A stretch of 64,000 nucleotides of DNA from Pristiophorus japonicus (taxonomy: Eukaryota): the NCBI RefSeq assembly GCF_044704955.1, contig NC_091977.1:13020001-13084000 (forward strand), written 5' to 3'. The position numbers and the translations under genes were made by a program. The notes beneath the pieces are model-generated. The model saw only the letters and a list, made by a program, of their open reading frames with translations, ran no database searches and was not told where the DNA came from. Below are positions 1-33,319 of the stretch, piece after piece (position 1 is the first letter of the stretch; every line of letters begins with the position of its first letter).

Positions 1-140
1 GGTGGACGCAGATTCAATAATAACTTTCAAAGGGGAATTGGATAAATACTTGATGGGGAAAAATTTGCAGGGCTGTGGGGAAAGGGCAGAGGGAGTGGAA
101 CTAATTAGATAGCTCTTTCAAAGAGCCGACACAGAGACGA
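1..140 (+). mobile_element. CR1 LINE 3' end fragment
   Basis: ORF2 C-terminal-like text (ttcaaaggggaattggataaatacttg) plus 3'UTR, resembling the other CR1 ends in the window. Confidence 0.7.
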
Positions 141-160
141 TCTGTCCTGTATCAGTCAAT

Positions 161-988
161 GGGCTGGATTTCGCATTTTCTGTTTTCGGGGCAATAATGG
201 TGACGGGGTGGGAAAGTTAGCGGCCGGGAATAACATAAGAACATAAGGAATAGGAGCAGGAGTAGGCCATTTGGCCCCTCGAGCCTGCTCTGCCATTTAA
301 TAAGATCATGGCTGATCTGATCATGGGCTCGGCTCCACTTCCCTGCCCGCTCCCCATAACCCTTTACTCCATTATCGCTCAAAAATCTGTCCATCTCCAC
401 CTTAAATATATTCAATGACCCAGCCTCCACAGCTCTCTGGGACTGGGAATAGTTTGCGCTTTAGTATGTAAATTTGGGCATCGCGACCCTGCGTCAGGTG
501 CTGTTCACCGCTCTTGCTGCAAGGATGGGAAACCCTCGAGCTAAAGAGCCGGGCCGGGAGCACTCCAAGAGCGGCCTGGGTGGTCGGGGGGAAACCGACA
601 AATCCCCACAGGAACATTCCTAAAACATGGCCCACACCACCACCACCGCAACACAAACCGCACAAAAATTTAAAACAGGAAACACCCACACTTACATTTG
701 TAGCACTTTACCTTCCCCACCACCGCTGGCTCGGCTGGACCGCTCTGATTTCCCAGGCCGTTATTGCGGGCGCACTTCGGGGCGGACGGGTCGGCCAAGA
801 CTCAAAACTGGCGCCGGTGTCGCAACCAGGGGCGTTACACACCCAGCGCAACTCTTCCCGGCGATGCTGCTCAGCGCCACCACCAAACCCGACCCGAGGG
901 TCGCGGCAGGGCGTTGGAGACCTCACCGACACCTTTCACGCCGCTCCGGGGCGAAAGCCGGAGCACAAAGGACCGGAAAATCCAGCCC
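161..988. mobile_element. PIF/Harbinger-type MITE (non-autonomous DNA transposon)
   Basis: TIR GGGCTGGATTT (161-171) / AAATCCAGCCC (978-988); 3-bp TSD AAT (158-160, 989-991); no coding capacity; interrupted by a CR1. Confidence 0.75.
233..444 (-). mobile_element. 5'-truncated CR1 inserted in the MITE
   Basis: CR1 tail acataagaacataag; 7-bp TSD GGGAATA at 226-232 and 445-451. Confidence 0.85.
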
Positions 989-999
989 AATGATTCTAT

Positions 1000-1225
1000 A
1001 AGAGCAGGGGAGTTATCCCTGGGGTTTTGGCCAATATTTATCCCTCAACCAGTTAAACTGGCCATTAACTCATGGCTGTTTGTTGGATCTTGCTGTGCAC
1101 AAAATGGCTGCCGCGTTTCCTATATTACAACAGTGACTACACAGCAAAAAGTACTTCATTGGCTGTGAAGCTCTTTGGGACGCCCTGAGGTTGTGAAAGT
1201 TGCTATATAAATGCAAGTCCTTTCT
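1000..1225 (+). mobile_element. Deu-domain SINE (SacSINE1-like), 3' half
   Basis: gctgtttgttggatcttgctgtgcacaaaatggctgcc core and L2-like tail gctatataaatgcaagt. Confidence 0.7.
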
Positions 1226-1484
1226 ACGGTCATTTATCATTTGAAAAGTAAATGTGTTCAGTCTAGACCATCAGGTCTTGCAGTTTTATTGTGATATCTG
1301 TGGCTCTGTATTTGCTGTATTGTAATTGTATATTCATTCTCGGGATGTCGTCATCGCTGGCAAGGATGGCATTTTATTGCTGATCCCTAGTTGCCCTTGA
1401 GATGGTGGCGCTGAGCCTTCTTCTTGAACCGTTGCATCACAAGAGCTTTGTGTACAAGACTAACATACTGCCCCTGTCCCACAG

Positions 1485-1871
1485 GCAGCAGTCAATGGTC
1501 AATGTCAAGTCCACAGAAAGTAACCGGTTGGGAAGGAAAGTCTGTCATCTTGTCCTGCAAGTTCACACATCCCAACACTGACTATAGAGGGAGAATCACA
1601 GTCATCTGGAAGATAGAGAAGTATTATGATGGACCGCCTATTTTTAAATGTATAACTGTCGACCAACGCCAGAACTGCATAAATCAGAATGTGACTGATC
1701 CAACTGGAGAGAATCGCTATCCACTGACAGGAGACCCAAGTAAAAATGATGCTTCAATAATGATCCAAAAACTTGTGAAAAATGATAAGAATCAAAATCT
1801 CTGCGGTGTGGAGCTTGATTTGCCCAGACAAGGGTTTGAACATAAACCTGGAACATGTCTACAGGTAATAG
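1485..1871 (+). CDS. Exon: Ig V-set domain 1 of a Siglec-15-like receptor
   Basis: Branch point ACTAAC, acceptor CAG at 1482-1484, donor GTAAGG at 1872; 387 nt, phase 1-1, open. WSMSSPQKV..ILSCKFTHP..DY.G.IT.IWK...Y.GP.IFKC..NC..RY.LTGDPSKNDASI..LCGVEL parallels the Siglec-15 V domain (WSM..VLPCTFTHP..Y.GPLTAIWR..GPQVFRC..GNP..ND.SL..YFCRVEF). Confidence 0.88.
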
Positions 1872-1914
1872 GTAAGGACTTGCCTGTAACTGAACTTCAA
1901 TTCCAAACTGCGTG

Positions 1915-2008
1915 CTGATGAATGGTCATGGACCTGAAACATTAACTCTGTTTCACTCTCTGCAGATGCTCCCTGACCAGCTGAGTGCATTTTCTGTTTT
2001 CATTTCAC
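1915..2008 (+). mobile_element. Penelope-like terminal fragment with degenerate hammerhead core
   Basis: CTGATGA-atggtcatggacct-GAAAC-attaactctg, same sequence as 27549-27610. Confidence 0.7.
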
Positions 2009-2229
2009 TACTAAACTTCTAAACCCCAGTCTGAGACAGAGTGGAACAGGCGTCCAAAACTGAAATTGGGTTAAGGAGAGTGTTTTCTTAATGTCTAATA
2101 CTGGAGGAAGGGTTACAGTCATTCCGCAAGGCCACAATCTACGAACTTGGAGCCTATGAATATTGATTAGATCCTTCTGTTGTTTATGTCGTTAAAATAG
2201 GGGTGAAATCAAAAAGGAAATTAGAAAAG

Positions 2230-2652
2230 CAAGTGGAGGACTGGTGTGGTTTTCTTTGGAGCAGAGGAGGCGGAGGGGAGATTGGATTGAGGCGTATAAA
2301 ATGATGAGGGGCCTAGAAAGAGAGCGTAGGGAAAGGACCCATTTCATTCGCAGAGAGGACATTATCCACGGGCATAGATTTAAAGTAATTGATAGGAAGC
2401 TTAGAGGGGAGTTGAGGAGAACATTTTTCACCCAGAGGGTGGTGGGGGTCTGGAACTCAGTGCGTGAAAGGGTGCTAGAGGCAGAAACCCTCATCACATT
2501 TAATAAGCACTTGGATATGCACTTGAAGCACCGTAACCTACAGGGCTACGGACCAAGAGCTAGAAAGAGGGATTAGGTTGGATAGCACTTTTCGGCCGAC
2601 ACAGAAACGATGGGCCGAATAGCCATCTGTGCTGTAAATTTCTATGATTCTG
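2230..2652 (+). mobile_element. CR1 LINE 3' fragment
   Basis: FSLEQRRRRGDWIEAYKMMRG..RRTFFTQRVVGVWN; tail ttctatgattctgtg. Confidence 0.85.
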
Positions 2653-2809
2653 TGTTAGTTTGTCTAATTTACAATTTTTGATTGCTTATATTTCAGTGCA
2701 GGAGTTTTGTTGATTTAAAGTCCATCTTGGGGAACACTACATGCTCTGTGGAAGCAGAAGGGAGGGGCGGTGAGCTGATTTGAGTTGTTCTCATTGTGTG
2801 AGCTGTGGG

Positions 2810-3235
2810 TCTGTGGGTATCTCTCTCGCATCTGAGTCAGAAGGCTGTGGGTTCAGGTCCTGCTCCAGAGACTTGAAGTGCAAGATCTAGGCTCAGTGCA
2901 GTACTGAGGGAGTGCTGCAGAATCGGAGGGGATGTTATTTGGATGTGATGTTAAACTGAGGCCCCGTCTGCCCTCTCAGGTGAATGTAGAAGATTCTGTT
3001 GCACTATTTTGAAGAAGAACAGGGGAGCTCTGGTTCAATATTTACCCCTTAACCAACATCACAAAAAACAGATGATCTGGTCATTATCACATTGCTGTTG
3101 TGGGAGCTTGCTGTGCGCAAATTGGCTGCCGTGTTTCCTACACTACACCTCAAAAAGTACTTGATTGGCTGTGAAGCTCTTTGGGATGACCTGAGGTTGT
3201 GGAATGCGCTGTAGAAATAGGTCCTCTTTCTTTCT
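2810..3235 (+). mobile_element. Near full-length Deu-domain SINE (SacSINE1-like)
   Basis: tRNA-like head (ctgagtcagaaggctgtgggttcaggtcc), Deu core, L2-like tail. Further copies at about 4730-4925(-), 6785-7295, 30380-30535, 35720-36190, 36375-36530, 47085-47215(-), 55290-55455. Confidence 0.75.
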
Positions 3236-3298
3236 TTACACTTTATGCTCCAATACAATCCAGGGAGGATCTGAGCTTTTATCCATTCCCTCTTCCAG

Positions 3299-3655
3299 GA
3301 GCTGATCCAAGCAGTAGGTCAGTGAATGAGACTGAAGGAGGTTCGGTCACATTGCCCTGCTCCTTCACCCTGGAGCCTGAAGATCTCAGGAACATCGCTG
3401 TGATCTGGATGATAGGGAGCCCGTACGAGCAGGAGGGGTACGTCATCTTTAACCAGTCTTCAAAACTAAACGTCATGACTGCGAATGATCGATTTGAACT
3501 GAGTGGGCATCTGATGAGTGGAAACGCCTCCCTCAGGATCAGAAACCTGAGGGTGACCGACACCAGTACGTACTTCTGTCACGTTGAGTGCAGTCATCGT
3601 ACTCCAGAAAGTGAGATCTGTGCGACACAAGATGAGATATATCTACAAGTATTTG
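3299..3655 (+). CDS. Exon: Ig V-set domain 2
   Basis: Pyrimidine tract and CAG acceptor 3296-3298, donor GTAAGC at 3656; 357 nt, phase 1-1. V-set motifs EGGSVTLPCSF, VIW, RFELSG, NASLRIRNLRVTDTSTYFC. Confidence 0.9.
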
Positions 3656-3727
3656 GTAAGCAAACGTCTGTTTTACCAGCAAAAATGTTCACAGACCCTT
3701 CGAACAGCAATCAGAATAGCTGAGCCA

Positions 3728-4120
3728 TACAACAACAACTTGCATTTATATAGCGCCTTTTCAACGTAGTAAAATGTTCCAAAGCACTTCACAGGAGCAT
3801 TATAAGACAAAAATTTGTTACAGAAGAAGATATTAGCACAGGTGACCAAAAGCTTGGTCAAATGGTAGGATTTAAGGAGCATCTTGAAGGAGGAGAGAGA
3901 AGTGGAGAGGCGGAGAGGTTAAGGGAGGGAATTCCAGAGCTTGGGGCCCACACAACTGAAGGCACAGCCACCAATGGTAGGGCAATGGAAATCAACGTAT
4001 GCACAAGAGGCCAGAATTGGAGGAACGCAGAGATCTCGGACAGTTGTAGGGCTGCAGGAGGTTACAGAGATAGGGAGGGGTGAGGCCATGGAGAGATTTG
4101 AAACCAGACTAAGAAGGTTG
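3728..4120 (-). mobile_element. L2 LINE 3' fragment
   Basis: aacaacttgcatttatatagcgcc tail followed by the L2 3' region, same family as 23444-24030 and 49840-50320. Confidence 0.7.
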
Positions 4121-5279
4121 CTTCTCTGAGTTAGCTGATCACAGCCTGGGCAATATGATTAACCTCAGTCTGACTTGAGTTAAAGCAGGGGGGGGGGGAA
4201 ATCTATCAGGGTGTTGGTCCTTAAATAACAGCCTCTGCTGAAAATGTGTGTGTGTGTGTGTGAGGAGAAAATTGGTCACTGTTTGAAGATTACACATGAA
4301 TCATGGTCACTTGTGTGAGGGAATGGAAGGCAATGGACAGCCAGGAATGCCTATCTCAAGAAGACGTCAACAGTTTTCAGGAAGGGAAGGGGTATTTGTG
4401 AGAAATTAAATAAAAAGATAAAAGTGCTCACTATATGTGTCAGATGTTCAGTGACGATCCAGGAAATAAGCCATTTGGCCTGCCCTAGCTTATTTCCCTT
4501 GTACTTTAACTCTCCCAGCCCAGTAGCCAACTGCATTTTGAATGCCTCTGATGTTCGTGTCTCTGTCACTTTAGCCAGCAGATTATTCCAAAGATTTGCC
4601 ACCATTTGAGTTAATGAAAGTTATTCTAATATCTTATAAATGTCACTAATTTAAATTTATAGCCTCTGGTTGTAATGTCCTGACTTTTTTTGAAGCAAGA
4701 CTTCCCCTCTGCATTATGTGTACTTTTAGAGTGTAGTTACTGTTGTAGTGTTGAGAAACACAGCAGCCAATTTGCGCACAGCAAGCTCCCACAAACAGCC
4801 ATGTGATAATGGGACCAGATAATCTGTTTTAGTGATGTTGTTTGAGGGATAAATATTGGCCAGGACACAAGGGAGTGCTTCCCTGCTCTTCTTCAAAATT
4901 GTGCTGTGGGATCTTTTACATCAGGTGAACACCCAACTAAGCTTGCTTTGTCATGTTAAAAATGTCCTGGGAATGGTTATGTTTCAACCAACATCAAACA
5001 TGTGATCATTACCTCATTTTGATGTACGCAATTAAGATGCTGCATTTCCTACATCGCAACAGTGACTTTCGTCAAAAGTCCTTCATTGGCTGTAAAGCGC
5101 GATAGGTTGTCTTGAGGTCGTGAAAGGCGTTAAATAAATGCAAAGTTTGTTTAACTTTCGTCAATGGATGTGTACAGATTGGTGGGGTGTGGGTAGTGAT
5201 GTGTCCCAGGGAGCAGTGCTGAGACAATATTGTTTTGTTTTCCATTTGTTTCCGACACAATATCTTCTCCAGAACAACG

Positions 5280-5880
5280 ACCGCCTACTTCCACCTCTAT
5301 GACTTTGTCTATCTCTGCCCCTCCCTCAGCCCATCCACTGCTCAAACTCTCATCCATCTCTGCCCCTCCCTCAGCCCATCCACTGCTCAAACTCTCATCC
5401 ATCTCTGCCCCTCCCTCAGACCATCTGCTGCTCAAACTCTCATCCATCTCTGCCCCTCCCTCAGCCCATCCACTGCTCAAACTCTCATCCATCTCTGCCC
5501 CTCCCTCAGCCCATCCACTGCTCAAACTCTCATCCATCTCTGCCCCTCCCTCAGCCCATCCGCTGCTCAAACTCTCATCCATCTCTGCCCCTCCCTCAGC
5601 CCATCCGCTGCTCAAACTCTCATCCATCTCTGCCCCTCCCTCAGACCATCCGCTGCTCAAACTCTCATCCATCTCTGCCCCTCCCTCAGCCCATCCGCTG
5701 CTGAAACTCTCATCCATGCCTTTTGTTACCTCCAAACTCGACGAGTCCAATGCTCCCCTGGCCAAACTCCCATCCTTCACTCCCCATAAACTGGAACTCA
5801 TCCGAAACTCGGCTGCCCATGTCCTAACTGGCACCAAGTCCCGTTTACCCATCACACCTGTGCTCGCTGACCTACACTGG
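5280..5880 (+). mobile_element. L2 ORF2 fragment carrying a tandem expansion
   Basis: TAYFHL..LSPSAAETLIHAF / VTSKLDESNA..LELIRNSAAHVLT..PITPVLADLHW. Confidence 0.8.
5307..5717. repeat. 45-bp minisatellite, 9 units
   Basis: (tccatctctgcccctccctcagcccatccactgctcaaactctca)n. Confidence 0.95.
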
Positions 5881-6622
5881 AGGCGGTGTTGCTTCTTGTC
5901 GTCAATGCCTGCCACAATGGAAGGAAGCAAACGGTAAGATTCTTAGAATGTCAGTGGTGCCTCAGTGGTCAACAGTGAGTGTTACCAACTGAGCCACTGG
6001 CTGTGACATTACAGCAATGAAGAATTTGCATAAGACGTTGGTTACACCAAGTTGGAATATCGTGTGCAATTCTGGACACCCCATTAAAGGAAGGATATCG
6101 GGGCCATGGAAAGGGTTTGACAAAGGTTCTGTAGAATGAGACTGGAACAACGAAGGCTTTAAACCAATGGAGTTTTTCTCACAGGAATGGCGAAGATTAA
6201 GTGGGAACGTAATCGAGCTTTTCAGAAATGCTTTGAAAGGTTATGTTGCTCGATTGGCGAATTGGTTAAAAAGGGCATAGACTGCGGTTCATGATGAGAA
6301 GAATGAAGGGGGAATTCGAGGCGGGTTATTGGAACATGGAATGCTTTACCACAAGTGGCCACTGAGGCAGAGACTATACTGTCACTTAGAAGGGAATTGG
6401 ATAAATATTTATAAAGGAACAATATAAAAGGATAAGTGGAAAGGGCAGGGAAATAGGGGTAGAGAAGGCTCCAGTTGAAGAGCTAGCATGGGTGCAATGG
6501 ACTGAATGGCCTCCTTGTGTGCTGTGAATGCTATGACTATGGCAAGACACGGAGGAGATAGCTCCTGAAGAGCAGTCGGTGTGCAGTGACTGAGAAAGCT
6601 TATTGCACCCTCTGTTTTACAG

Positions 6623-6733
6623 CGTCCCAGCCGGTTAGCCCAACATGGCTGACAGTCATCCTTCTTCTGTTGGCCCTGATGATCCTGATTGCCATCGCCT
6701 GCTTCATCTGGAGAAGCAAAGGATTTTGTACAG
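6623..6733 (+). CDS. Exon: stalk, transmembrane helix and stop-transfer
   Basis: Acceptor ttttacAG 6621-6622, donor GTACCG at 6734; 111 nt, phase 1-1; (A)SQPVSPTWLTVILLLLALMILIAIACFIWRSKGFCT, in frame with the V2 exon. Confidence 0.85.
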
Positions 6734-7470
6734 GTACCGACTAACGTTCATTCACATTCCTAGTGACCCTGACTCTTCCGGTGTCACCCGTGGCTAAGGT
6801 CGGCAACACTCTTGCCTCTGAGTCAGAAGGTCGTGGGTTCAAGACACACCGTGGCTGCAGACGTCACCAGCTCGCGGCAGAGTGGCACAGAGCCTGCTGC
6901 TTCAAAGCTCCCTCCAACTCCAGAGAATTGAGCACAAAATCCAGGCTGGCACTGCGGGAGTGCTCAACTGCCAAGGTGCCATCTTTCAGATGAGACATTA
7001 AACCGGGGTCCTGTCTGCTCTCTCGGGTGAATGTAAAAAATCTCATGCCACTTTTCAAAGACGTTCTTCCCAGGGTACTGACCAATATTTCTGTCTCAAC
7101 CAAGATCACTAAAAAACATATTTATCTGGTCATTTATCACAATGCTGTTTGTGGGATGTTGCTGTGCATACATTGGCTGCCATGTTTCCTACATTACAAC
7201 AGTGGCTACGCTTCAATAGTACTTCAATGGCTGTGAAGCCCTCTGGGACGTCGCGAGGTGGGAAAGGGGCTACATTAATGCAATGTTGTTGTTTCTTTCT
7301 CAGTCAGACTTATATTCACCTGTTGAGTGTTGCTAGATTTTCCAGTGTTGCTGTTGCCCTCGGGTGCTGAGGATCACCTGATGAGGAGGATACGGAGGGA
7401 AAGTGGGGAAGTTCTGTGACCACCGTGTGATTATACCCTGTCCGGTTTTCCTCTCTGCGTTTTGCTCCAG

Positions 7471-7514
7471 GCCATCCTTCATGGACAATGAAGAGTATCT
7501 GTCCTGGAATCTGA
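7471..7514 (+). CDS. Candidate terminal exon (short cytoplasmic tail)
   Basis: Strong acceptor ttttcctctctgcgttttgctccAG at 7469-7470; a phase-1 join gives (G)HPSWTMKSICPGI-stop. Confidence 0.5.
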
Positions 7515-7930: not shown

Positions 7931-10900
7931 TTTTATATATGTGGACTTGTATTTACTCTGTACAGCCACCAGAGGGATCATTCCCCGGAGTCCCAAGGGA
8001 CCCCATAATTTCTTGGGAGCACAGGTATTTAAGGAGGCTTCACAGGTTGGAGAGGCACTCTGGAGACCTGCAATAAAAGACTACGGTCACACTTTACATT
8101 GAGATCACAGTGTTCAGTCTGACTCTTTCTCCATACATAACAACAGGCGACGAGATACAGATAGCGAACCCAAAGATGCAGAGAACAGTGGGCATCCTGG
8201 AGAAATTTTCGGAGGGAGATGATTGGGAAACTTTTGTGGAGCGACTCGACCAATACTTCGTGGCCAACGAGCTAGATGGGGAAGGGAACGCTGCCAAACG
8301 AAGGGCGATCCTCCTCACTGTCTGTGGGGCACTAACGTATGGCCTCATGAAGAATCTGCTCACTCCAGCGAAACCCACGGAGAAATCATATGACGATTTG
8401 TGCACAGTGGTCCGGGAGCATTTGAATCCGAAGGAAAGCGTTCTGATGGTGAGGTACCGGTTCTACACATACAAAAGGACTGAAGGTCAGGAAGTGGCGA
8501 GTTATGTCGAAGAGCTAAGATGCCTTGCAGGACATTGCGACTTTGAAGGACATTTGGAGCACATGCTCAGAGACTTTTTCGTACTTGGCATCGGCCACGA
8601 AACCATACTTCGCAAATTTTTGACTGTAGAGACCTTGAGTAAGGCCATAGCGATAGCCCAGGCATTCATTGCCACCAGTGACAATACGAAGCAAATCTCT
8701 CAGCACACAAGTGCTGCTACAAGTACTGTGAACAAAGTGGTGTTGTTTTCGAATCGTAACGTACAGGGCAGGTCATACATACCTGCAGCTACACGTCCGC
8801 AGATGTCTCAGAGTCCACCATCAAGGGTGATGACTGCAAGGCCATTAACACCTTGTTGGCGCTGCGGGGGTGATCATCGTTTCCATTCATGCCGTTTCAA
8901 AGGATACATTTGCAAGGGCTGTGGAACAATGGGACACCTCCAACGCATGTGCAGGCGAGCTGCTAAGCCTGCTAAACCTGCAAACCACCATGTTGCAGAG
9001 GAGGAGAGATCCATGGAGGATCACGACGAACCAGAGCCTCAGATCGAGGAGGCAGAGGTACATGGGGTGCACACATTCACCACGAATTGTCCCCTGATAA
9101 TGCTGAATGTTGAACTAAATGGACTCCCAGTGTCAATGGAGCTGGACACGGGCGCGAGCCAGTCCATCATGGGCAAAAAGACTTTCGAAAGGTTGTGGTG
9201 CAACAAGGCCTCAAGGCCAGTCTTAACTCCAGTTCGCACGAAACTAAGAACTTACACAAAAGAACTGATTCCTGTAATCAGCAGTGCTACCGTAAACGTT
9301 TCCGAGAATGGAGTGTTGCACAAGCTACCACTCTGGGTGGTGTCGGGCGATGGTCCCACGCTGCTCGGCAGGAGCTGGGCGATAGCTGGAACTGGGACGA
9401 CATCTGAGCACTATCGCCCGCTGACAACACTTCATGTGCCCAGGTCTTAAACAAATTTCCTTCGCTGTTCGAACCAGGCATCAGGAAGTTCCAAAGAGCA
9501 AAAGTGCAGATCCACCTAATTCCGGGGGCGCGACCCATCCATCACAAGGCGAGAGCAGTACCATACATGATGAGAGAAAGGGTAGAGATCGAGCTAGACC
9601 GGCTACAAAGAGAGGGCATCATCTTACCAATCGAGTTCAGTGAGTGGGCCAGTCCTATTGTCCCAGTCCTCAAGGGAGACGGTACCTTCAGAATCTGTGG
9701 CGATTACAAAGTAACTATCAATCGTTTTTCCCTGCAGGACCAATACCCACTACCAAAAGCCAATGATCTCTTTGCAACGCTGGCGGGAGGAACGACGTTC
9801 ACGAAGCTGGATCTGACTTCGGCCTACATGACACAGGAACTGGAGGAATCATCGAAGGCCCTCACCTTCATCAACACACACAATGGTCTTTTTGATTATA
9901 ACAGATGCCCGTTTGGAATCCGATCAGCGGCGGCGATATTCCAGAGAAACATGGAGAGTTTACTGAAGTCGGTCCCACACACCGTTGTCTTCCAGGACGA
10001 CATCTTGGTCACAGGTCGGAACACAGTCAAGCATCTGCAGAACCTGGAGGAAGTTCTTAGTCGACTCAACCGCGTGGGGCTCAGGTTAAAACGCACAAAG
10101 TGCATTTTTCTGGCGCCTGAAGTGGAGTTCCTGGGAAGGAGGATTGCGGCGGACGGCATCAGGTCCACCAACGCGAAGACGGAGGCAATTGAGAACGCAC
10201 CGAGGCCACAGAACGTGATGGAGCTACAGTCGTTTCTGGGACTCCTGAACTACTTTGGTAACTTCTTACCGGGTCTCAGCACACTGCTAGAACCACTACA
10301 TGTCTTACGATGAAAAGGGGACAAATGGGTTTGGGGTAAAAGTCAAGAAAATGCCTTTGTAAAAGCGAGAAAATTGTTATGCTCAAACAAATTGCTTGTG
10401 TTGTATGATCCATGTAAGCATTTTGTACTAGCTTGTGATGCGTCGTCATATGGTGTCGGGTGTGTATTGCAACAAGCTAATGACTTTGAGAAACTGCAAC
10501 CGGTTGCTTATTCATCCAGGAGTCTGTCTAAGGCCGAGAGAGCCTACAGCATGATTGAAAAAGAAGCATTAGCGTGTGTCTATGGGGTAAAGAAAATGCA
10601 TCAATACCCGTTTGGGCTAAAATTCGAATTGGGAACTGACCATAAGCCACTTATATCCATGTTTTCCGAGAGTAAAGAGATAAATACCAAAGCATCGGCC
10701 CGCATCCAGAGATGGACGCTCACATTGTCCGCATACAACTACGCCATCCGCCACAGGCCAGGTACAGAAAACTGCGCCGATTCTCTCAGTAGGCTGCCAT
10801 TGCCCACCACGGGGTGGAAATGGCGCAGCCCGCAGATCTAGTCATGGTTATGGAAGCATTTGAGAGTGAGCAATCAGCCGTCACTGCCCGGCAGATCAAA

Positions 10901-12464
10901 ACCTGGACAAGCCAGGACCCCTTATTATCTCTAGTCAAAAGCTGTGTGCTTCATGGGAGCTGGCCCAGTGTCCCAGTGGAAATGCAGGAAGAGATAAAGC
11001 TGTTCCAGCAGCGCAAAGATGAAATGTCTATACAGGCAGACTGCCTTCTGTAGGGCAATCGAGTAGCGGTCCCCAAGAAGGGCAGAGACACCTTCATCAA
11101 TGACCTCCACAGTACCCATCCAGGCAGCGTAATGATGAAAGCGATAGCCAGATCCCACGTGTGGTGGCCTTGTATTAATGCGGACTTCGAGTCCTGTGTT
11201 CACAGATGTAATACATGCTCGCTGTTAAGCAATGTACCCAGGGAGGCGCCGCTAAGTTTATGGTCTTGGCCCTCCAAACCGTGGTCTAGGTACACGTCGA
11301 CTATGCAGGCCTGTTCTTGGCGAAAATGTTCCTTGTGGTTGTAGATGCGTACTCCAAGTGGATTGAGTATAAGATAATGCCGGCTAGCACGTCCGTTGCC
11401 ACTATTGAAAGCCTGTGGCTTTGTTTGCCACTCATGGCTTACTCGATGTCCTGGTGAGCGACATCAGGCCATGTTTTACCAGTGCTGAGTTAAAGAATTC
11501 ATGACCCGTAATGGGATCAAACTTGTCACATCTGCCCCATTTAAACCAGTGCAAACCATCAAGCAAGGCTTGAAGAGGGTAACGGAAGGCTCACTGCAAA
11601 CTCGCCTATCCCAAGTCCTGCTTAGCTACCACACGAGACCCCACTCACTCATTGGGATCCCAGTTGCTGAACTGCTCATGAAAAGAGCATTTAAGACAAG
11701 GCTCTCATTAGTTCACCCTGATCTACATGAACAGGTAGAGAGCAGACGGCTTCAACAAAGTGCATACCATGATAGCGCAAATGTGTCACACGAGATTGAA
11801 GTCAATGATCCTGTATTTGTATTAAATTATGGACAAGGTCCCAAGTGGCTTCCCAGCACTGTCGTGGCCAAAGAGGGGAGCAGGGTGTTTCGGGTCAAAC
11901 TTTCAAATGGACTCATTCACCGGAAACACTTGGACCAAAACAAACTCAGATTCATGGCCTACCCTGAGCAACCCACCTTGGACCCTACCTTTTTTGATTC
12001 CCCAACACATACACCATTGGCAACCGACACCACGGTTGACCACAAAACAGAACCCATCATCCACAGCAGCCCTGCAGGGCCCAACACACCCGGCAGCCCA
12101 GTAAGGCCAGCTGCACAGCAGCCCAGCGAGGGCCCAACAAATGATTCATCAACACCAGCTTTCACACCGAGATGATCAATCAGGGCAAGAAGGGCCGCAG
12201 ATCGACTCACATTGTAAATAGTTACACTATTGTCTTTCGGGGGGGGGGGGGGGGGAATGTTGTTATATATGTGGACTTGTATTTACTCTGTACAGCCACC
12301 AGAGGGCTCATTCCCTGAAGTCCCAAGGGACCCCATAATCCCTTGGGTGCACAGTTATTTAAGCAGGCTTCACAGGTTGGAGAGGCACTCTGGAGACCTG
12401 CAATAAAAGACTAAGGTCACACTTTGAACTCACAGTGTTTAATCTGACGCTTTCTCCATACACA
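7931..12464 (+). mobile_element. Full-length Ty3/Gypsy (Mag-clade-like) LTR retrotransposon, decayed
   Basis: LTRs 7931-8142 and 12261-12464; TSD CTAAC 7926-7930 / 12465-12469; PBS (t>a)ggcgacgag after 8144; G-run PPT before 12261. Confidence 0.95.
8176..12217 (+). pseudogene. gag-pol (two CCHC knuckles, protease, RT, RNase H, integrase) with frameshifts and stops
   Basis: CWRCGGDHRFHSC, CKGCGTMGHLQRMC, LDTGA, FQDD, CDASSYGVG, ARSHVWWP; split over several ORFs. Confidence 0.92.
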
Positions 12465-17061: not shown

Positions 17062-19308
17062 ATCCACCCCGACCAGTCCTACACGGTCCCGGGCCGGACA
17101 ATCCACGATAACATCCATCTGGTCCGGGACCTCATCCATTGTTCCCAGGAGGCTGGTCTGTCGGTCGCCTTCCTATCCCTCGACCAAGAGAAGGCATTCG
17201 ACAGGGTGGATCACGACTATCTGCTCGGAACTCTGCGCGCTTTCGGGTTCGGGACGCATTTCGTCGCCCGGATCCGACTTTTGTACGCCGCCGCGGAGTG
17301 TCTGATTAAGGTTAACGGGTCCTTGACGGCGCCCCTTCGCTTTAGGAGAGGGGTGCGCCAGGGATGCCCCATGTCCGGCCAGTTATACGCCGTTTGCGTG
17401 GAGCCTTTCCTGCGCCTCTTGCGGACGAGGTTGACGGGACTGGCTCTGCAAGGGCCGGGCGTGGAGGTCGTCCTCTCGGCCTACGCCGATGACGTGCTCC
17501 TCGCGGTAGAGGATCCCGCTGACCTGCGGAGGATGCGTGAGTGCCAGGAGATTTACTCGGCCGCGTCCTCCGCCAGGATCAACTGGGAGAAATGTTCCGG
17601 ACTCCTGGTGGGTCAGTGGCGGGTGGACTCCCTGCCGGAGGAGCTCAGGCCTTTTGCCTGGAGCACGACCCATCTCCTCTATCTGGGAGTCTACCTTAGC
17701 CCCGACGAGGAAGCCTGGCCGGCGAACTGGCAGGAGCTGGAGGCCAAGGTCGCCGCTCGCCTAGGGCGCTGGACAGGACTGCTCCGAGTGCTGTCCTACA
17801 GGGGTCGAGCGCTAGTCATAAACCAGCTGGTGGCCGCAATGCTGTGGTACCGGCTGGTCACTTTGACCCCTCCCCCTGCGTTTGTCGCCAAGATACAGAA
17901 GAAGCTGGTGGACTTCTTCTGGAACAACAGGAAGCACTGGGTCTCTGCCGCGGTCTTGAGTCTCCCGCTTGAGGAGGGTGGTCAGTCGTTGGTGTGCGTC
18001 AGCGCCCAGCTCGCGACTTTCCGTCTTCAGACCCTGCAGAGATACCTTTACGTCGAGCCCCCTCCTAGGTGGTGTGCTCTGGCGAGGTATTTCTTCCGCC
18101 AGCAGCGCGACCTCAATTATGACACGCAGTTCCTGTTTGTGAACTTGGGGGGTGTCAGGACCGCCCTCCGGGAGCTGCCTGTCTTTTACAGGGAACTCAT
18201 CAGGGTCTGGAACAAAGTCTCCACCAAGCGCAGCTCTCCGCCGGCTGGAGTGGCGGCCGTCCTGCAGGAACCGCTGCTCGGGAATCCGTACCTCCACGGC
18301 CGGGGTTTCATGTGGCGGTCGGAAGAGAGGGCTGTGGCTGGTGAGGTGACCAGGGTCAGAGACCTGCTCGATGGCGGAGGAGTGGGCTGGATGGCGCCAG
18401 ACACGCTGGCGCGGCGCCTAAACTCTGCCAACGTCCGCCACGCGGCCGATGCCATCGAGTCGCTAAAAACAGCTCTGGGCCCTGACTCCGTTAGGTGCAT
18501 CGAGGAGGCTCAAGCACGTGGGGAGATCCCGTCCGAACTGACCCCCGTCCGGACGGAATTCCTCATCGGCGCCAAACCCCGGAACCTCCCTCGGGGGCCG
18601 GCGCCTCACAACTTGAGCCGCCTCGGGGAAATCCCCTCCGTGCCTTTCAGTTCCGCGCGGAGGGGTTTCCTGTACGGGCTGCTCCTGCACACCCTCAACT
18701 TTGCCATCCTCGCCGGCCGTCCGGACACGCCATGGCGTACCATCTTGCCGTCCGGAGGAGGAAGGGGTCCCCGATGGAGGGCACTCTACGCAGGGGTCCT
18801 CCCACTATTCATCGGGGACTTGGCCTGGAGGGTGGTGCACGGAGCAGTGCCGTGCAACAAATTTTTAAGCCGGTTCACAGACTCCCAGGCCGCCTGCAAT
18901 TTCTGCGGTCTGGAAGAGTCCGTGTTCTATGTTTTTATTGAGTGCACGAGGTTGCAGCCCCTGTTCCATTATTTGAAGGGGCTGCTCCTGAAATTCTGGC
19001 TGCACTTCAGTCCCACTCTCCTGATCTTTGGACACCCTGTGCGGAGGGGAGCGGGTAGGTCCGAAGGCCTCCTCGTAGGACTGCTCCTGGGCACGGCCAA
19101 GGGTGCCATCAGCCGGTCCAGGCAGCGGGCGGTCGAGGGGGTCGTTCAACCTGACTGCCTGCCTCTCTTCCGCTCTTACATCCGGTCCAGGGTGTCCTTG
19201 GAGATGGAGCACGCGGTGTCCACCGGTACGCTCGCGGCCTTCCGCGAGAGGTGGGCACCGGAGGGACTGGAGTGCATCATCACGGCCGGCAACCAAATTT
19301 TAATTTGA
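17062..19308 (+). CDS. Uninterrupted partial ORF2 (RT and C-terminal zinc knuckle; no endonuclease, no native start)
   Basis: IHPDQ, SLDQEKAFDRV, GVRQGCP, YADD, YLGV, CNFCGLEESVFYVFIEC (knuckle His replaced by Tyr). Confidence 0.8.
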   Translation: MHPDQSYTVPGRTIHDNIHLVRDLIHCSQEAGLSVAFLSLDQEKAFDRVDHDYLLGTLRAFGFGTHFVARIRLLYAAAECLIKVNGSLTAPLRFRRGVRQGCPMSGQLYAVCVEPFLRLLRTRLTGLALQGPGVEVVLSAYADDVLLAVEDPADLRRMRECQEIYSAASSARINWEKCSGLLVGQWRVDSLPEELRPFAWSTTHLLYLGVYLSPDEEAWPANWQELEAKVAARLGRWTGLLRVLSYRGRALVINQLVAAMLWYRLVTLTPPPAFVAKIQKKLVDFFWNNRKHWVSAAVLSLPLEEGGQSLVCVSAQLATFRLQTLQRYLYVEPPPRWCALARYFFRQQRDLNYDTQFLFVNLGGVRTALRELPVFYRELIRVWNKVSTKRSSPPAGVAAVLQEPLLGNPYLHGRGFMWRSEERAVAGEVTRVRDLLDGGGVGWMAPDTLARRLNSANVRHAADAIESLKTALGPDSVRCIEEAQARGEIPSELTPVRTEFLIGAKPRNLPRGPAPHNLSRLGEIPSVPFSSARRGFLYGLLLHTLNFAILAGRPDTPWRTILPSGGGRGPRWRALYAGVLPLFIGDLAWRVVHGAVPCNKFLSRFTDSQAACNFCGLEESVFYVFIECTRLQPLFHYLKGLLLKFWLHFSPTLLIFGHPVRRGAGRSEGLLVGLLLGTAKGAISRSRQRAVEGVVQPDCLPLFRSYIRSRVSLEMEHAVSTGTLAAFRERWAPEGLECIITAGNQILI

Positions 19309-19559: not shown

Positions 19560-21806
19560 ATCCACCCCGACCGGTCCTACACGGTCCCGGGCCGGACAAT
19601 CCACGATAACATCCATCTGGTCCGGGACCTCATCCATTGTTCCCAGGAGGCTGGTCTGTCGGTCGCCTTCCTATCCCTCGACCAAGAGAAGGCGTTCGAC
19701 AGGGTGGATCACGACTATCTGCTCGGAACTCTGCGCGCTTTCGGGTTCGGGACGCATTTCGTCGCCCGGATCCGACTTTTGTACGCCGCCGCGGAGTGTC
19801 TGATTAAGGTTAACGGGTCCTTGACGGCGCCCCTTCGCTTTAGGAGAGGGGTGCGCCAGGGATGCCCCATGTCCGGCCAGTTATACGCCGTTTGCGTGGA
19901 GCCTTTCCTGCGCCTCTTGCGGACGAGGTTGACGGGACTGGCTCTGCAAGGGCCGGGCGTGGAGGTCGTCCTCTCGGCTTACGCCGATGACGTGCTCCTC
20001 GCGGTAGAGGATCCCGCTGACCTGCGGAGGATGCGTGAGTGCCAGGAGATTTACTCGGCCGCGTCCTCCGCCAGGATCAACTGGGAGAAATGTTCCGGAC
20101 TCCTGGTGGGTCAGTGGCGGGTGGACTCCCTGCCGGAGGAGCTCAGGCCTTTTGCCTGGAGCACGACCCATCTCCTCTATCTGGGAGTCTACCTTAGCCC
20201 CGACGAGGGAGCCTGGCCGGCGAACTGGCAGGAGCTGGAGGCCAAGGTCACCGCTCGCCGAGGGTGCTGGTCAGGACTGCTCCGAGTGCTGTCCTACAGG
20301 GGTCGAGCGCTAGTCATAAACCAGCTGGTGGCCGCAATGTTGTGGTACCGGCTGGTCACTTTGACCCCTCCCCCTGCGTTTGTCGCCAAGATACAGAAGA
20401 AGCTGGTGGACTTCTTCTGGAACAACAGGAAGCACTGGGTCTCTGCCGCGGTCTTGAGTCTCCCGCTTGAGGAGGGCGGTCAGTCGTTGGTGTGCATCAG
20501 CGCCCAGCTCGCGACTTTCCGTCTTCAGACCCTGCAGAGATACCTTTACGTCGAGCCCCCTCCTAGGTGGTGCGCTCTGGCGAGGTATTTCTTCCGCCAG
20601 CAGCGCGACCTCAATTATGACACGCAGCTCCTGTTTGTGAACTTGGGGGGTGCCAGGACCGCCCTCCGGGAGCTGCCTGTCTTTTACAGGGAACTCATCA
20701 GGGTCTGGAACAAAGTCTCCACCAAGCGCAGCTCTCCGCCGGCTGGAGTGGCGGCCGTCCTGCAGGAACCGCTGCTCGGGAATCCGTACCTCCACGGCCG
20801 AGGTTTTATGTGGCGATCGGAAGAGAGGGCTGTGGCTGCTGAGGTGACCAGGGTCAGGGACCTGCTCGCTGGCGGAGGAGCGGGCTGGATGGCGCCAGAC
20901 ACGCTGGCGCGGCGCCTAAACTCTGCCAACGTCCGCCACGCGGCCGATGCCATCGAGTCGCTAAAAACAGCTCTGGGCCCTGACTCCGTTAGGTGCATCG
21001 AGGAGGCTCAAGCACGTGGGGAGATCGCGTCCGAACTGACCCCCGTCCGGACGGAATTCCTCATCGGCGCCAAACCCTGGAACCTCCCTCGGGGGCCGGC
21101 GCCTCACAACTTGAGCCGCCTCGGGGAAATCCCCTCCGTGCCTTTCAATTCCGCGCGGAGGGGTTTCCTGTACGGGCTGCTCCTGCACACTCTCAACTTT
21201 GCCATCCTCGCCTGCCGTCCGGACACGCCATGGCGTACCATCTTGCCGTCCGGAGGAGGCGGGGGTCCCCGATGGAGGGCACTCTACGCAGGGATCCTCC
21301 CACTATTCATCGGGGACTTGGCCTGGAGGGTGGTGCACGGAGCAGTGACGTGCAATAAATTTTTAAGCCGGTTCACGGACTCCCAGGCCGCCTGCAATTT
21401 CTGCGGTCTGGAAGAGTCCGTGTTCCATGTTTTTATGGAATGCACAAGGTTGCAGCCCCTGTTTTATTATTTGAAGGGGCTGCTCCTGAAATTCTGGCTG
21501 CACTTCAGTCCCACTCTCCTGATCTTTGGGCACCCTGTGCGGAGGGGAGCGGGTAGGTCTGAAGGCCTCCTCGTAGGACTGCTCCTGGGCACAGCCAAGG
21601 GTGCCATCAGCCGGTCCAGGCAGCGGGCGGTCGAGGGGGTCGTTCAACCTGACTGCCTGCCTCTCTTCCGCTCTTACATCCGGTCCAGGGTGTCCTTGGA
21701 GATGGAGCACGCGGTGTCCACCGGTACGCTCGCGGCCTTCCGCGAGAGGTGGGCACCGGAGGGACTGGAGTGCATCATCACGCCCGGCAACCAAATTTTA
21801 ATTTGA
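19560..21806 (+). CDS. Uninterrupted partial ORF2 (RT and CCHC)
   Basis: Same motifs as copy 1; intact CNFCGLEESVFHVFMEC. Confidence 0.8.
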   Translation: MHPDRSYTVPGRTIHDNIHLVRDLIHCSQEAGLSVAFLSLDQEKAFDRVDHDYLLGTLRAFGFGTHFVARIRLLYAAAECLIKVNGSLTAPLRFRRGVRQGCPMSGQLYAVCVEPFLRLLRTRLTGLALQGPGVEVVLSAYADDVLLAVEDPADLRRMRECQEIYSAASSARINWEKCSGLLVGQWRVDSLPEELRPFAWSTTHLLYLGVYLSPDEGAWPANWQELEAKVTARRGCWSGLLRVLSYRGRALVINQLVAAMLWYRLVTLTPPPAFVAKIQKKLVDFFWNNRKHWVSAAVLSLPLEEGGQSLVCISAQLATFRLQTLQRYLYVEPPPRWCALARYFFRQQRDLNYDTQLLFVNLGGARTALRELPVFYRELIRVWNKVSTKRSSPPAGVAAVLQEPLLGNPYLHGRGFMWRSEERAVAAEVTRVRDLLAGGGAGWMAPDTLARRLNSANVRHAADAIESLKTALGPDSVRCIEEAQARGEIASELTPVRTEFLIGAKPWNLPRGPAPHNLSRLGEIPSVPFNSARRGFLYGLLLHTLNFAILACRPDTPWRTILPSGGGGGPRWRALYAGILPLFIGDLAWRVVHGAVTCNKFLSRFTDSQAACNFCGLEESVFHVFMECTRLQPLFYYLKGLLLKFWLHFSPTLLIFGHPVRRGAGRSEGLLVGLLLGTAKGAISRSRQRAVEGVVQPDCLPLFRSYIRSRVSLEMEHAVSTGTLAAFRERWAPEGLECIITPGNQILI

Positions 21807-31363: not shown

Positions 31364-33319
31364 CAGTTCGAATTCTGGACACCTCGGGGCCGAGGCCGTT
31401 CCGGATTCCGGGTATTTCCGGATTGGGGAGGTAGGTAGGATAGGAAAGTGGGGGATCGGTCGGGTCGCCGGAGGTTTGGGGGGGGTGGTCGGTCAGGCCA
31501 CCAGAGGTTGAGGGGGGGGTCGGTCAGGCCACCAGAGGTTGGGGGGGAGGGGGTCGGTCAGGCCACCAGAGGTTGGGGGGGAGGGGGTCGGTCAGGCCAC
31601 CAGAGGTTGGGGGGGAGGGGGTCGGTCAGGCCACCAGAGGTTGGGGGGGAGGGGGTCGGTCAGGCCACCAGAGGTTGGGGGGGAGGGTGTCGGTCAGGCC
31701 ACCAGAGGTTGAGGTGGGGGGTCGGTCAGGCCACCAGAGGTTGGGGGGGGGGGTCGGTCAGGCCACCAGAGGTTGGGGGGGAGGGGGGAGGTCAGGCCAC
31801 CAGAGGTTGAGGGGGGGGGGGTCGGTCAGGCCACCAGAGGTTGAGGGGGGGGGGTCGGTCAGGCCACCAGAGGTTGGGGGGAGGGGGGAGGTCAGGCCAC
31901 CAGAGGTTGAGGGGGGGGGGGTCGGTCAGGCCACCAGAGGTTGGGGGGGAGGGGGTCGGTCAGGCCACCAGAGGTTGGGGGGGAGGGGGTCGGTCAGGCC
32001 ACCAGAGGTTGAGGGGTGGGTCGGTCAGGCCACCAGAGGTTGGGGGATCGGTCAGGCCACCAGAGGTTGGGGGGAGGGGGTCGGTCAGGCCACCAGAGGT
32101 TGGGGGGGGGTCGGTCAGGCCACCAGAGGTTGGGGTGGAGGGGTCGGTCAGGCCGCCAGAGGTTGGGGTGGAGGGGTCGGTCAGGCCGCCAGAGTTTGGG
32201 GGGGAGGGGGTCGGTCAGGCCACCAGAGGTTGGGGGGGAGGGGGTCGGTCAGGCCACCAGAGGTTGGGGGGGAGGGGGTCGGTCAGGCCACCAGAGGTTG
32301 GGGGGGAGGGGGTCGGTCAGGCCACCAGAGGTTGGGGGGGAGGGGGTCGGTCAGGCCACCAGAGGTTGGGGGGGAGGGGGTCGGTCAGGCCACCAGAGGT
32401 TGGGGGGGAGGGGGTCGGTCAGGCCACCAGAGGTTGGGGGGGAGGGGGTCGGTCAGGCCACCAGAGGTTGGGGGGGAGGGGGTCGGTCAGGCCACCAGAG
32501 GTTGAGGGGTGGGTCGGTCAGGCCACCAGAGGTTGGGGGGGGGTCGGTCAGGCCACCAGAGGTTGGGGGGGAGGGGGTCGGTCAGGCCACCAGAGGTTGG
32601 GGGGGGGTCGGTCAGGCCACCAGAGGTTGGGGGGGAGGGGTCGGTCAGGCCGCCAGAGTTTGAGGGGGGTGTTGGTTGGGCCGCAGGAGGTCGGGGTGGG
32701 GTCAGCCAGGCCAAGGCCGGGTGCGGGGTGGGGGGGGGGGCAGATCGGGCCAAGGCCGGGTCGGAGGGGAGAGATTGGGCCGCCAGAGGTCGGGGGGTGC
32801 GTGGATTAGGCTGAGGTCATGGGGGGAGGTCGGGCAGCTGGAGGTCGGGGGTGTCGGTCGGGCTGCAGGCCAGGAGTGTTGGTCGGACCGATACCGGGGG
32901 GAGGTCGAGCCGAGGTCGGTGAGGGGGGTCGGTCGGGCTGTTGGAGGTTGCGGGGGGGGGTCGGTTGGGCCGAGGCCGGGGGGGGGGGGGTGTGGTGCAG
33001 GGGTGGGGGAGCAGGTGGGGAGGTCAGGCCACAGGAGGTCGGGGGAGTTGGCCGGAGGTCAGGTGGCGGCCGGAGGTAGTGTCGAGGCGGGGGGGGAGGT
33101 CGGGTAACTGAGGTCGGTGGAGGTTGGGCCGAAGGCCAGGGGAGGTCGGGCGACCAGGAGCTGGGGGTGGTCGGGCCGAGGTCGGGGGAGGCCGGTGGCC
33201 AGGGCAGGGGAGTTCGGATGTCAGAACATCTTGCAGTTTCCGGATGACCCCGCCACGTATTGGCGCTGTGTCCCGATTCCGGAACATTCTGGAACTTCGG
33301 ATTTTGGACGTCGCACCTG
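31364..33319. mobile_element. Non-autonomous DNA transposon-like insert (CAG...CTG ends after TA; subterminal TCCGGA motifs)
   Basis: Interrupts a colinear CR1; TCCGGA-like repeats at both ends; right-hand TA not preserved. Confidence 0.5.
31480..32670. repeat. G-rich minisatellite, roughly 38 units of 26-32 bp
   Basis: (G5 TCGGTCAGGCCACCAGAGGTT G7 A)n with variable G-runs. Confidence 0.95.

What the first reader, a model, noticed from the sequence alone, without database searches (positions are those of the whole stretch)
1485..7514. Siglec-15-like receptor with V-V-TM layout, no essential Arg and no TM lysine
Seen: the F-strand motif reads NLCGVEL in V1 (GGT 1805-1807) and YFCHVEC in V2 (CAC 3580-3582); each codon is one substitution from Arg. 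V1 keeps the extra Cys pair (FKC..NC). The TM helix is uncharged. Known: Siglec-15 is V-C2-TM, binds sialic acid through the Arg of YFCRVE, and couples to DAP12 through a TM Lys. Inference: this is a lineage-specific paralogue that has lost sialic acid binding and adaptor coupling (decoy, ligand or new specificity), probably one member of a multigene family.
Basis: partly seen in the sequence, partly recalled or inferred. Interest (0 to 1): 0.7.

Follow-up and report, generated by a model that had tools for sequence, protein, structure and literature searches.

The report
Broken shark Siglec-15-like receptor copy
This is a damaged, likely dead copy of a shark immune-receptor gene related to Siglec-15: its first splice site is mutated and the inhibitory tail exons are missing, while an intact sister gene 270 kb away keeps the sugar-binding arginine, so the odd features likely reflect decay plus family-normal design rather than a new kind of receptor.

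Summary
The exons, motifs and uncharged TM helix are real. V-V-TM with an Arg-less second domain and a neutral helix is the normal inhibitory form of a shark/ray paired-receptor family, so V2 His and the missing TM Lys are not losses. An inverted sister gene 270 kb away (V1 87%, V2 93%, TM exon identical) keeps YFCRVEL, and its exons join in frame to a tail with three ITIM-like motifs. Only V1 Arg>Gly is derived in the window copy, together with Tyr104Asn (0 of 399 homologous domains) and Arg79Pro (0 of 424). Its leader exon, 7 kb upstream of the window, has the donor GT changed to TT, and the ITIM exons have no copy here. Best reading: a recent duplicate, now a pseudogene, patchily homogenised with its sister by gene conversion (0.8). 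Against: open frames, and private changes enriched in exons (p=0.007). Expression untested. The scan reported this family before, in this cluster and in other genomes.

The parts
1..1484 (+). 3' end of intron 1. The leader exon lies before the window (G000:C1:13012973-13013024, 7027 bases before window start; locus L047) and its splice donor at C1:13013025-13013026 reads TT where the sister and three other copies have GT
1..1717 (+). Tract nearly identical to the sister gene, beginning about 434 bases before the window (24 differences in 2151 aligned bases), likely gene conversion
1485..1871 (+). V1 exon, Siglec-15-like V-set with extra Cys pair; private changes R79P, R85S, T101K, Y104N, F105L, R107G and others
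1796..1807 (+). F-strand codons AAT CTC TGC GGT (N-L-C-G); sister TAC TTC TGT CGT (Y-F-C-R)
3299..3655 (+). V2 exon, V-set, YFCHVEC shared with sister; belongs to the Arg-less second-domain clade of cartilaginous fish
5311..5717 (+). 45-bp minisatellite (9 copies) in intron 3; not a stalk exon
6623..6733 (+). Transmembrane exon, uncharged helix, identical to the sister's; flanks also near-identical (1/73, 1/127)
7471..7514 (+). Likely relic of the first cytoplasmic exon, running to TGA (tail about 20 aa, no tyrosine motif); homology with the sister ends at 7456
7933..12462 (+). Gypsy-type LTR retrotransposon just downstream (LTRs 90.7% identical over 205 bp; protease, RT, RNase H in broken frames); AATAAA at 8072 is the first such signal after the stop

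Best explanation
The window holds a damaged duplicate, likely a pseudogene, of a shark V-V-TM Siglec-15-like receptor gene whose intact, predicted inhibitory sister lies 270 kb away on the opposite strand. Shown: the sister (called B here; C1:13340794-13236762, minus strand) has leader, V1 with the essential Arg, V2, neutral TM and three in-frame exons with TIYSIV, CTYADI and VIYATL; the window copy has a GT>TT leader donor, V1 changes unseen in homologues, and no copy of those tail exons. Inferred mechanism: B binds sialylated self ligands through V1 Arg and recruits phosphatases through its ITIM-like motifs; a segmental duplication made the ancestor of the window copy and of a third copy C (frameshifted, lacking most of V2 and the TM); the window copy lost its 3' exons near an LTR insertion and its leader splicing, so no signal-peptide-bearing protein would be made; freed from selection, V1 lost Tyr104 and Arg107. 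Gene conversion with B has since homogenised three patches (intron 1 + 5' V1, V2, TM), which is why most of the gene looks intact.
For: Leader donor TT versus GT in the 4 other copies found; of 5 alternative GT/GC sites before the stop, 4 are out of frame and the fifth (TTT|GTTTTC) would leave an 8-residue leader; no other convincing leader between it and V1 (3 loose candidates: one with a weak GTGGAC donor, two from one ATG in a high-copy repeat). Asn two before the F-strand Cys in 0 of 399 homologous domains (Tyr 371), Pro at position 79 in 0 of 424. Private V1 changes 9 non-synonymous: 2 synonymous (hand count) against 305:79 sites, i.e. no purifying selection seen. B's tail exons are single-copy in 485 kb fetched and, for the two tested, in the genome. 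In 51 family proteins, 24 of 24 scorable neutral-TM forms keep the V1 Arg against 4 of 11 TM-Lys forms, so neutral TM + no Arg is off-pattern. Neighbours are broken too: copy C frameshifted, a V-V-C2 gene in pieces with stops in 2 of 4 internal tail exons, a frameshifted V-C2 copy at 13.195 Mb. Conversion: 24/2151, 9/478 and 2/311 differences in three patches against 4-15% elsewhere, flanks as identical as exons.
Against: V1, V2 and TM frames are open with intact splice sites. Private substitutions are enriched in exons, 18/444 versus 15/951 non-exon sites (Fisher p=0.007), which plain decay does not predict; conversion between B and C or earlier diversifying selection could explain it but was not shown. 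The dN/dS count is small (11 changes) and cannot tell neutrality from positive selection. The TT rests on one assembly, with no reads and no second haplotype for this copy. The upstream flank is well kept (8 private changes in 461 sites). B's own model is not fully resolved (a 28-nt phase 1-to-2 exon has no partner found; no database protein for B). The 24/24 versus 4/11 tally counts isoforms and kin, not independent events.
Confidence: 0.8

Rival explanations
1. Expressed decoy: an Arg-less, ITIM-less receptor made by truncation at an LTR (poly(A) signal at 8072), spliced through a non-canonical or undiscovered leader, that binds a new ligand or soaks up pathogen adhesins aimed at the sister.
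For: Open V1-V2-TM frames and a plausible last exon; private changes cluster in the F-G strands, the ligand face of Siglec-15 (10 of 153 sites; PMC10264397 passages); Arg>Gly by the same CGT>GGT change occurs in two other cluster genes, one with a database protein (P0009).
Against: Dead leader donor with no good rescue; Y104N and R79P unseen in about 400 homologues; the other two Gly copies lie upstream of TM-Lys exons, i.e. the activating class, unlike this one.
Confidence: 0.1
2. Null allele or assembly error: the locus is a working tail-less or differently tailed gene in other individuals, and the TT donor (perhaps more lesions) is private to this haplotype, as with human SIGLEC16/SIGLEC16P.
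For: Precedent of segregating null alleles in paired Siglecs (PMC5701461, PMC7379906 passages); only one haplotype of this copy is in the assembly.
Against: Lesions are several and spread over leader, V1 and the 3' end; the donor change sits among 7 private changes in 58 sites plus a 1-nt gap, more than one error or one recent mutation would give.
Confidence: 0.07
3. Chimeric inhibitory gene: the TM exon splices 84 kb or more downstream into orphan phase-1 ITIM-like exons of a broken V-V-C2 gene on the same strand (C1:13.088-13.133 Mb).
For: Same strand, compatible phase, no V or TM exon found between.
Against: Two of the four internal exons carry stops; a good acceptor at 7471 and an LTR poly(A) signal come first; the leader is still dead.
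Confidence: 0.03

Closest known systems
Human Siglec-15 (PDB 7zoz; PMC10264397 and PMC7226832, passages read)
   Same: V1 sequence and fold, B-F disulfide plus the extra C'-C'' Cys pair, position of the essential Arg (R143) on strand F; V1 falls in a Siglec-15-containing clade apart from MAG/CD33-like/PILR rows (97/92).
   Different: V-V instead of V-C2; neutral TM and, in the sister, ITIM-like tail instead of TM Lys/DAP12; window copy has Gly at the Arg site. Not shown to be the orthologue: the order within the clade is open.
Unnamed shark/ray V-V-TM paired receptors, auto-named 'Siglec-15/-12/-10', 'JAML-like', 'pIgR-like', 'A33-like' (e.g. P0011, P0015, P0018)
   Same: Exon layout, Arg-less V2 (V2 clade 100/97), neutral-TM ITIM class, same genomic cluster as P0009 and P0056 (98-100% matches in V and C2 exons).
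   Different: The window/B/C V1 is its own long branch (100/99), only 30-39% identical to these V1s and 45% at best to lungfish Siglec-15; its V2 sides with the V-V-C2 subfamily (97/85). No close orthologue was found.
Human SIGLEC16P / SIGLEC11, SIGLEC17P, SIGLEC12 (PMC5701461, PMC7379906, passages read)
   Same: Opposite-strand paralogues homogenised by gene conversion with a non-functional partner; Arg loss going together with gene disruption.
   Different: SIGLEC16 is the activating partner; the window copy carries the inhibitory-type TM. These are CD33-related genes of another lineage: analogy, not membership.

Membership tests
Siglec-15 (strict) | N-terminal V-set most similar to Siglec-15, with extra Cys pair | tested here: met
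   C95-C104 described in PMC10264397
Siglec-15 (strict) | Essential Arg on strand F (R143) | tested here: not met
   Gly (GGT 1805-1807); met in the sister
Siglec-15 (strict) | V followed by one C2 domain | tested here: not met
   second domain is V-set; no C2 exon found between V2 and TM in either copy
Siglec-15 (strict) | TM Lys for DAP10/12 | tested here: not met
   feature from PMC7226832. The shark V-C2 proteins auto-named Siglec-15 lack it as well (P0056, P0060-P0067)
Siglec-15 (strict) | Orthology by tree and conserved synteny | tested here: inconclusive
   branching within the clade is open; flanking non-family genes were not examined
Siglec (functional) | Binds sialic acid | not testable with these tools
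   predicted lost from R143A data
Shark V-V-TM paired receptors, inhibitory class | Leader-V1-V2-TM phase-1 exon chain with Arg-less V2 | tested here: met
Shark V-V-TM paired receptors, inhibitory class | Neutral TM | tested here: met
Shark V-V-TM paired receptors, inhibitory class | ITIM-like tail exons | tested here: not met
   absent from the window copy; present in the sister
Shark V-V-TM paired receptors, inhibitory class | V1 Arg kept | tested here: not met
   24 of 24 scorable neutral-TM proteins keep it; the window copy does not
Unprocessed pseudogene | Disabling lesion with an intact paralogue as source | tested here: met
   GT>TT donor, missing 3' exons
Unprocessed pseudogene | No purifying selection | tested here: inconclusive
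   9 N: 2 S against 305:79 sites; few changes; exon enrichment p=0.007
Unprocessed pseudogene | No functional transcript or protein | not testable with these tools
   needs RNA data for this species
PILR / MAG / CD33-related | V1 groups with these | tested here: not met
   they form the other side of the 97/92 split (midpoint root, long branches)

The most novel reading that the evidence does not exclude
The copy is expressed as a signalling-dead decoy twin of an inhibitory Siglec-15-like receptor: cut short at an LTR, kept near-identical to its sister in V2, TM and the 5' half of V1 by gene conversion, and selectively rewritten only on the F-G ligand face, while also feeding sequence back into the live gene.
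Probability: 0.1. Interest if true: 0.6.

Novelty: new member of a known kind. Interest (0 to 1): 0.25.

Why it matters
As a gene it is likely dead, so it matters little alone. It is a clean example of birth-and-death with gene conversion in a shark Siglec-15-like cluster, paralleling SIGLEC11/16P, and a warning that Arg loss in such clusters can be decay. The better target is the sister gene B: an intact-looking V-V-TM receptor with Arg and three ITIM-like motifs, on its own branch, for which no database protein was found. The family shows that the Siglec-15 lineage has inhibitory members in cartilaginous fish; five literature searches (listings only) showed no paper describing it, which is weak evidence given the library's limits.

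Tried and rejected
RNA evidence: no RNA holder listed; no evidence either way, and no reads could be laid to check the TT. Protein searches with window V1 (longer) and sister V1 (near) gave no hit; weak evidence only. AlphaFold model of window V1 is confident (pLDDT 86.8) but is driven by the alignment and cannot judge Y104N or R79P; used only for the fold match. A mucin-like stalk exon at 5273-5933 was rejected: out-of-phase donor, stop at codon 2 in the sister, sequence belongs to a dispersed repeat. Alternative tail frame (..NEEYLSW..) needs an extra phase-shifting exon, none found; not adopted. C2 exon between V2 and TM: none. Direction of conversion in the 5' tract: 22 of 464 differences to copy C against 18.0 expected if window-to-sister and 30.9 if sister-to-window (likelihood ratio about 3; intron only 11 of 231, ratio 1.7): inconclusive. 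Partner exon for B's 28-nt exon not found. Paper search returned off-topic shark papers. Supplements of the four papers were not looked at. Look-ups of earlier notes near the window and by sequence gave nothing. No complex prediction was sent.
Full report
Observation. Both Ig exons are V-set. V1's best solved relative is Siglec-15 by sequence (7zoz, E 4.8e-17, 3 hits in all) and by fold of a predicted model (pLDDT 86.8; E 4.7e-12, TM 0.84); NLCGVE aligns to YFCRVE, the R143 site (PMC10264397 passages). V2 alone is a generic V-set. No other Ig exon was found in the window.

Setting. The window is G000:C1:13020001-13084000. V1 has 23 matches in the genome, 15 of them on C1 between 11.21 and 13.29 Mb. 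Database proteins P0009 and P0056, labelled as shark proteins, match neighbouring V and C2 exons at 98-100%, so the host is a shark. A profile search returned 97 longer proteins, the larger part from sharks and rays. I took 51 cartilaginous-fish V-V-type proteins of these 97: 14 had no TM, 25 a neutral TM (many with ITIM-like tails) and 12 a TM Lys. None of the 48 V2-type motifs found has Arg; the first V1-type motif has Arg in 24 of 24 scorable neutral forms and 4 of 11 scorable Lys forms (one of each class had no motif; rows include isoforms and kin). So V-V-TM, an Arg-less V2 and a neutral helix are family-normal. His in V2 is shared with V-V-C2-type proteins of a chimaera, a skate, a ray and another shark and with a V-V-C2 gene in this cluster; the tree puts window V2 with these (97/85) inside a V2 clade (100/97), and V1 on its own branch (100/99) within an unresolved Siglec-15-containing clade (97/92; 64 rows, 125 columns, midpoint root). 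The best identity of V1 among the top hits in 232 proteins is 45% (lungfish Siglec-15).

The sister. Copy B, 270 kb away on the minus strand, has V1 87% and V2 93% identical, YFCRVEL and YFCHVEC, an identical TM exon, a leader with GTGAGT donor and downstream exons with TIYSIV, CTYADI and VIYATL that join in frame to a 349-residue protein. A further 28-nt exon has no phase partner found, and B lacks the homologue of window 7457 onward, where a LINE-like piece sits, so its model is provisional. Copy C (C1:12571341) keeps Tyr and Arg but has a 1-nt deletion at codon 110 and lacks most of V2 and the TM. With B and C agreeing, Arg107Gly, Phe105Leu, Tyr104Asn, Thr101Lys, Arg85Ser and Arg79Pro are private to the window copy.

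Lesions. (1) The leader exon lies 7027 bases before the window start (C1:13012973-13013024). Its donor reads TTGAGT, against GTGAGT in B and GTGAGC in C and in the two copies on small contigs (5 copies found in all). Read-through stops after two codons; 4 of 5 alternative GT/GC sites are out of frame and the fifth is a very poor match that leaves 8 residues of leader. Three loose leader candidates in intron 1 are unconvincing. (2) Among 429 homologous domains aligned, 0 of 399 with the F-strand Cys have Asn two residues before it (Tyr 371, other aromatic or aliphatic 26, His 2) and 0 of 424 have Pro at position 79; that this Tyr packs into the Ig core is recalled knowledge. (3) B's tail exons have no second copy in 485 kb fetched (three exons tested) nor, for two tested, in the genome. 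The window copy instead has an acceptor at 7471 whose reading resembles the family's first cytoplasmic exon (rank 1 of 177, post hoc) and runs to a stop at 7514, followed by a Gypsy-type element (7933-12462) whose LTR holds the first AATAAA (8072). The neighbourhood holds other wrecks.

Evolution. Window and B differ at 23 of 1918 bases in intron 1, 1 of 233 in 5' V1, 9 of 357 in V2 (0 of 36 and 0 of 85 in its flanks) and 0 of 111 in the TM exon (1 of 73, 1 of 127 in flanks), but at 25 of 154 in 3' V1 and 4-15% in other blocks. At the leader flank window and C are closest (8 and 11 private changes against 26 in B). This pattern is read as gene conversion; it means that the perfect TM exon is no sign of function. 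Direction leans window-to-B by a likelihood ratio of about 3, inconclusive. Private V1 changes are 9 non-synonymous to 2 synonymous against 305:79 sites. Against plain decay: private changes are denser in exons than outside (18 of 444 versus 15 of 951, p=0.007), bunched in the leader (7 of 58) and 3' V1 (10 of 153); B (12) and C (6) are also raised in 3' V1, which suggests diversifying selection on the F-G face while the copies were alive, or conversion between B and C. This remains unexplained. Arg is replaced in 5 of 12 cluster V1 exons inspected (3 Gly by CGT>GGT, 2 Leu); the two other Gly genes lie upstream of TM-Lys exons.

Mechanism. Shown: anatomy, lesions, homology, identity patches. 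Inferred: B works like an inhibitory Siglec (Arg-dependent sialic acid binding, ITIM signalling); the window copy arose from it by segmental duplication, lost its tail and its leader splicing, makes no surface protein and drifts, with conversion masking part of the decay (0.8). Rivals: expressed decoy (0.1), null allele or assembly error (0.07), chimeric long-range tail (0.03).

Comparison and novelty. It works like human SIGLEC16P or SIGLEC17P: a dead paralogue beside a live one, with conversion and Arg loss (PMC5701461 and PMC7379906, passages). It is not Siglec-15 in the strict sense: no Arg, no C2, no TM Lys (PMC7226832 passages). Five paper searches listed no description of the shark family (listings only), but the scan has reported it several times on other DNA. 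Verdict: a real but ordinary feature, a likely pseudogene in a little-described cluster; interest 0.25.

Noticed in passing
G000:C1:13340794-13236762 (minus; loci L069, L044, L063, L065, L066, L101): Sister gene B: intact-looking leader-V-V-TM receptor with the essential Arg and three ITIM-like motifs, own branch in the tree, no database protein found; its F-G loop is strongly diverged from the two dead copies.
   Followed up: partly
G000:C1:12918390-12940930 (minus; L007, L017, L058): Gene matching P0009: V1 YRCGVEL (Arg>Gly) with a TM-Lys exon that the database isoform skips, i.e. an Arg-less activating-type receptor with a possible secreted form.
   Followed up: partly
G000:C1:12964850-12965830 and 13088155-13132632: A broken V-V-C2 inhibitory-type gene: C2-TM exon on the minus strand next to an inverted V2 fragment, and its ITIM-like tail exons on the plus strand 120-170 kb away, two with stops; the window gene shares their plus orientation while neighbours are on minus, suggesting an inversion.
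   Followed up: partly
G000:C1:12756232-12765253 (minus; L005, L023, L055): V-V-C2 gene with a TM Lys and V1 motif YICLVDL (no Arg); C2 and TM lie in one exon.
   Followed up: no
G000:C1:12716174-12735516 (minus; P0056) and 13185812-13197151: The V-C2 gene auto-named Siglec-15 has Arg but a neutral TM, as do its shark relatives P0060-P0067; a frameshifted partial copy lies at 13.19 Mb.
   Followed up: partly
window 5311-5717: 45-bp minisatellite grown out of a dispersed-repeat fragment, 9 units here and 13 in the sister; gives long spurious Pro/Ser-rich open frames.
   Followed up: yes
window 31451-32669: G-rich 34-bp tandem array, 37 copies, strong GC skew.
   Followed up: no
window 17062-17936 and 19560-20434: 875-bp direct repeat pair 99% identical to a stretch at C1:13367341-13368215; looks like the ends of a young LTR element.
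   Followed up: no
L047:2840-2960 (just upstream of the leader exon): ETS-like sites (TTCCT cores) conserved in all three copies; the motif label is recalled, not tested.
   Followed up: no
contigs C4093 and C4015: Small contigs repeat the 12.43-12.62 Mb part of the cluster (alternative haplotypes or further copies), so copy counts are uncertain.
   Followed up: no
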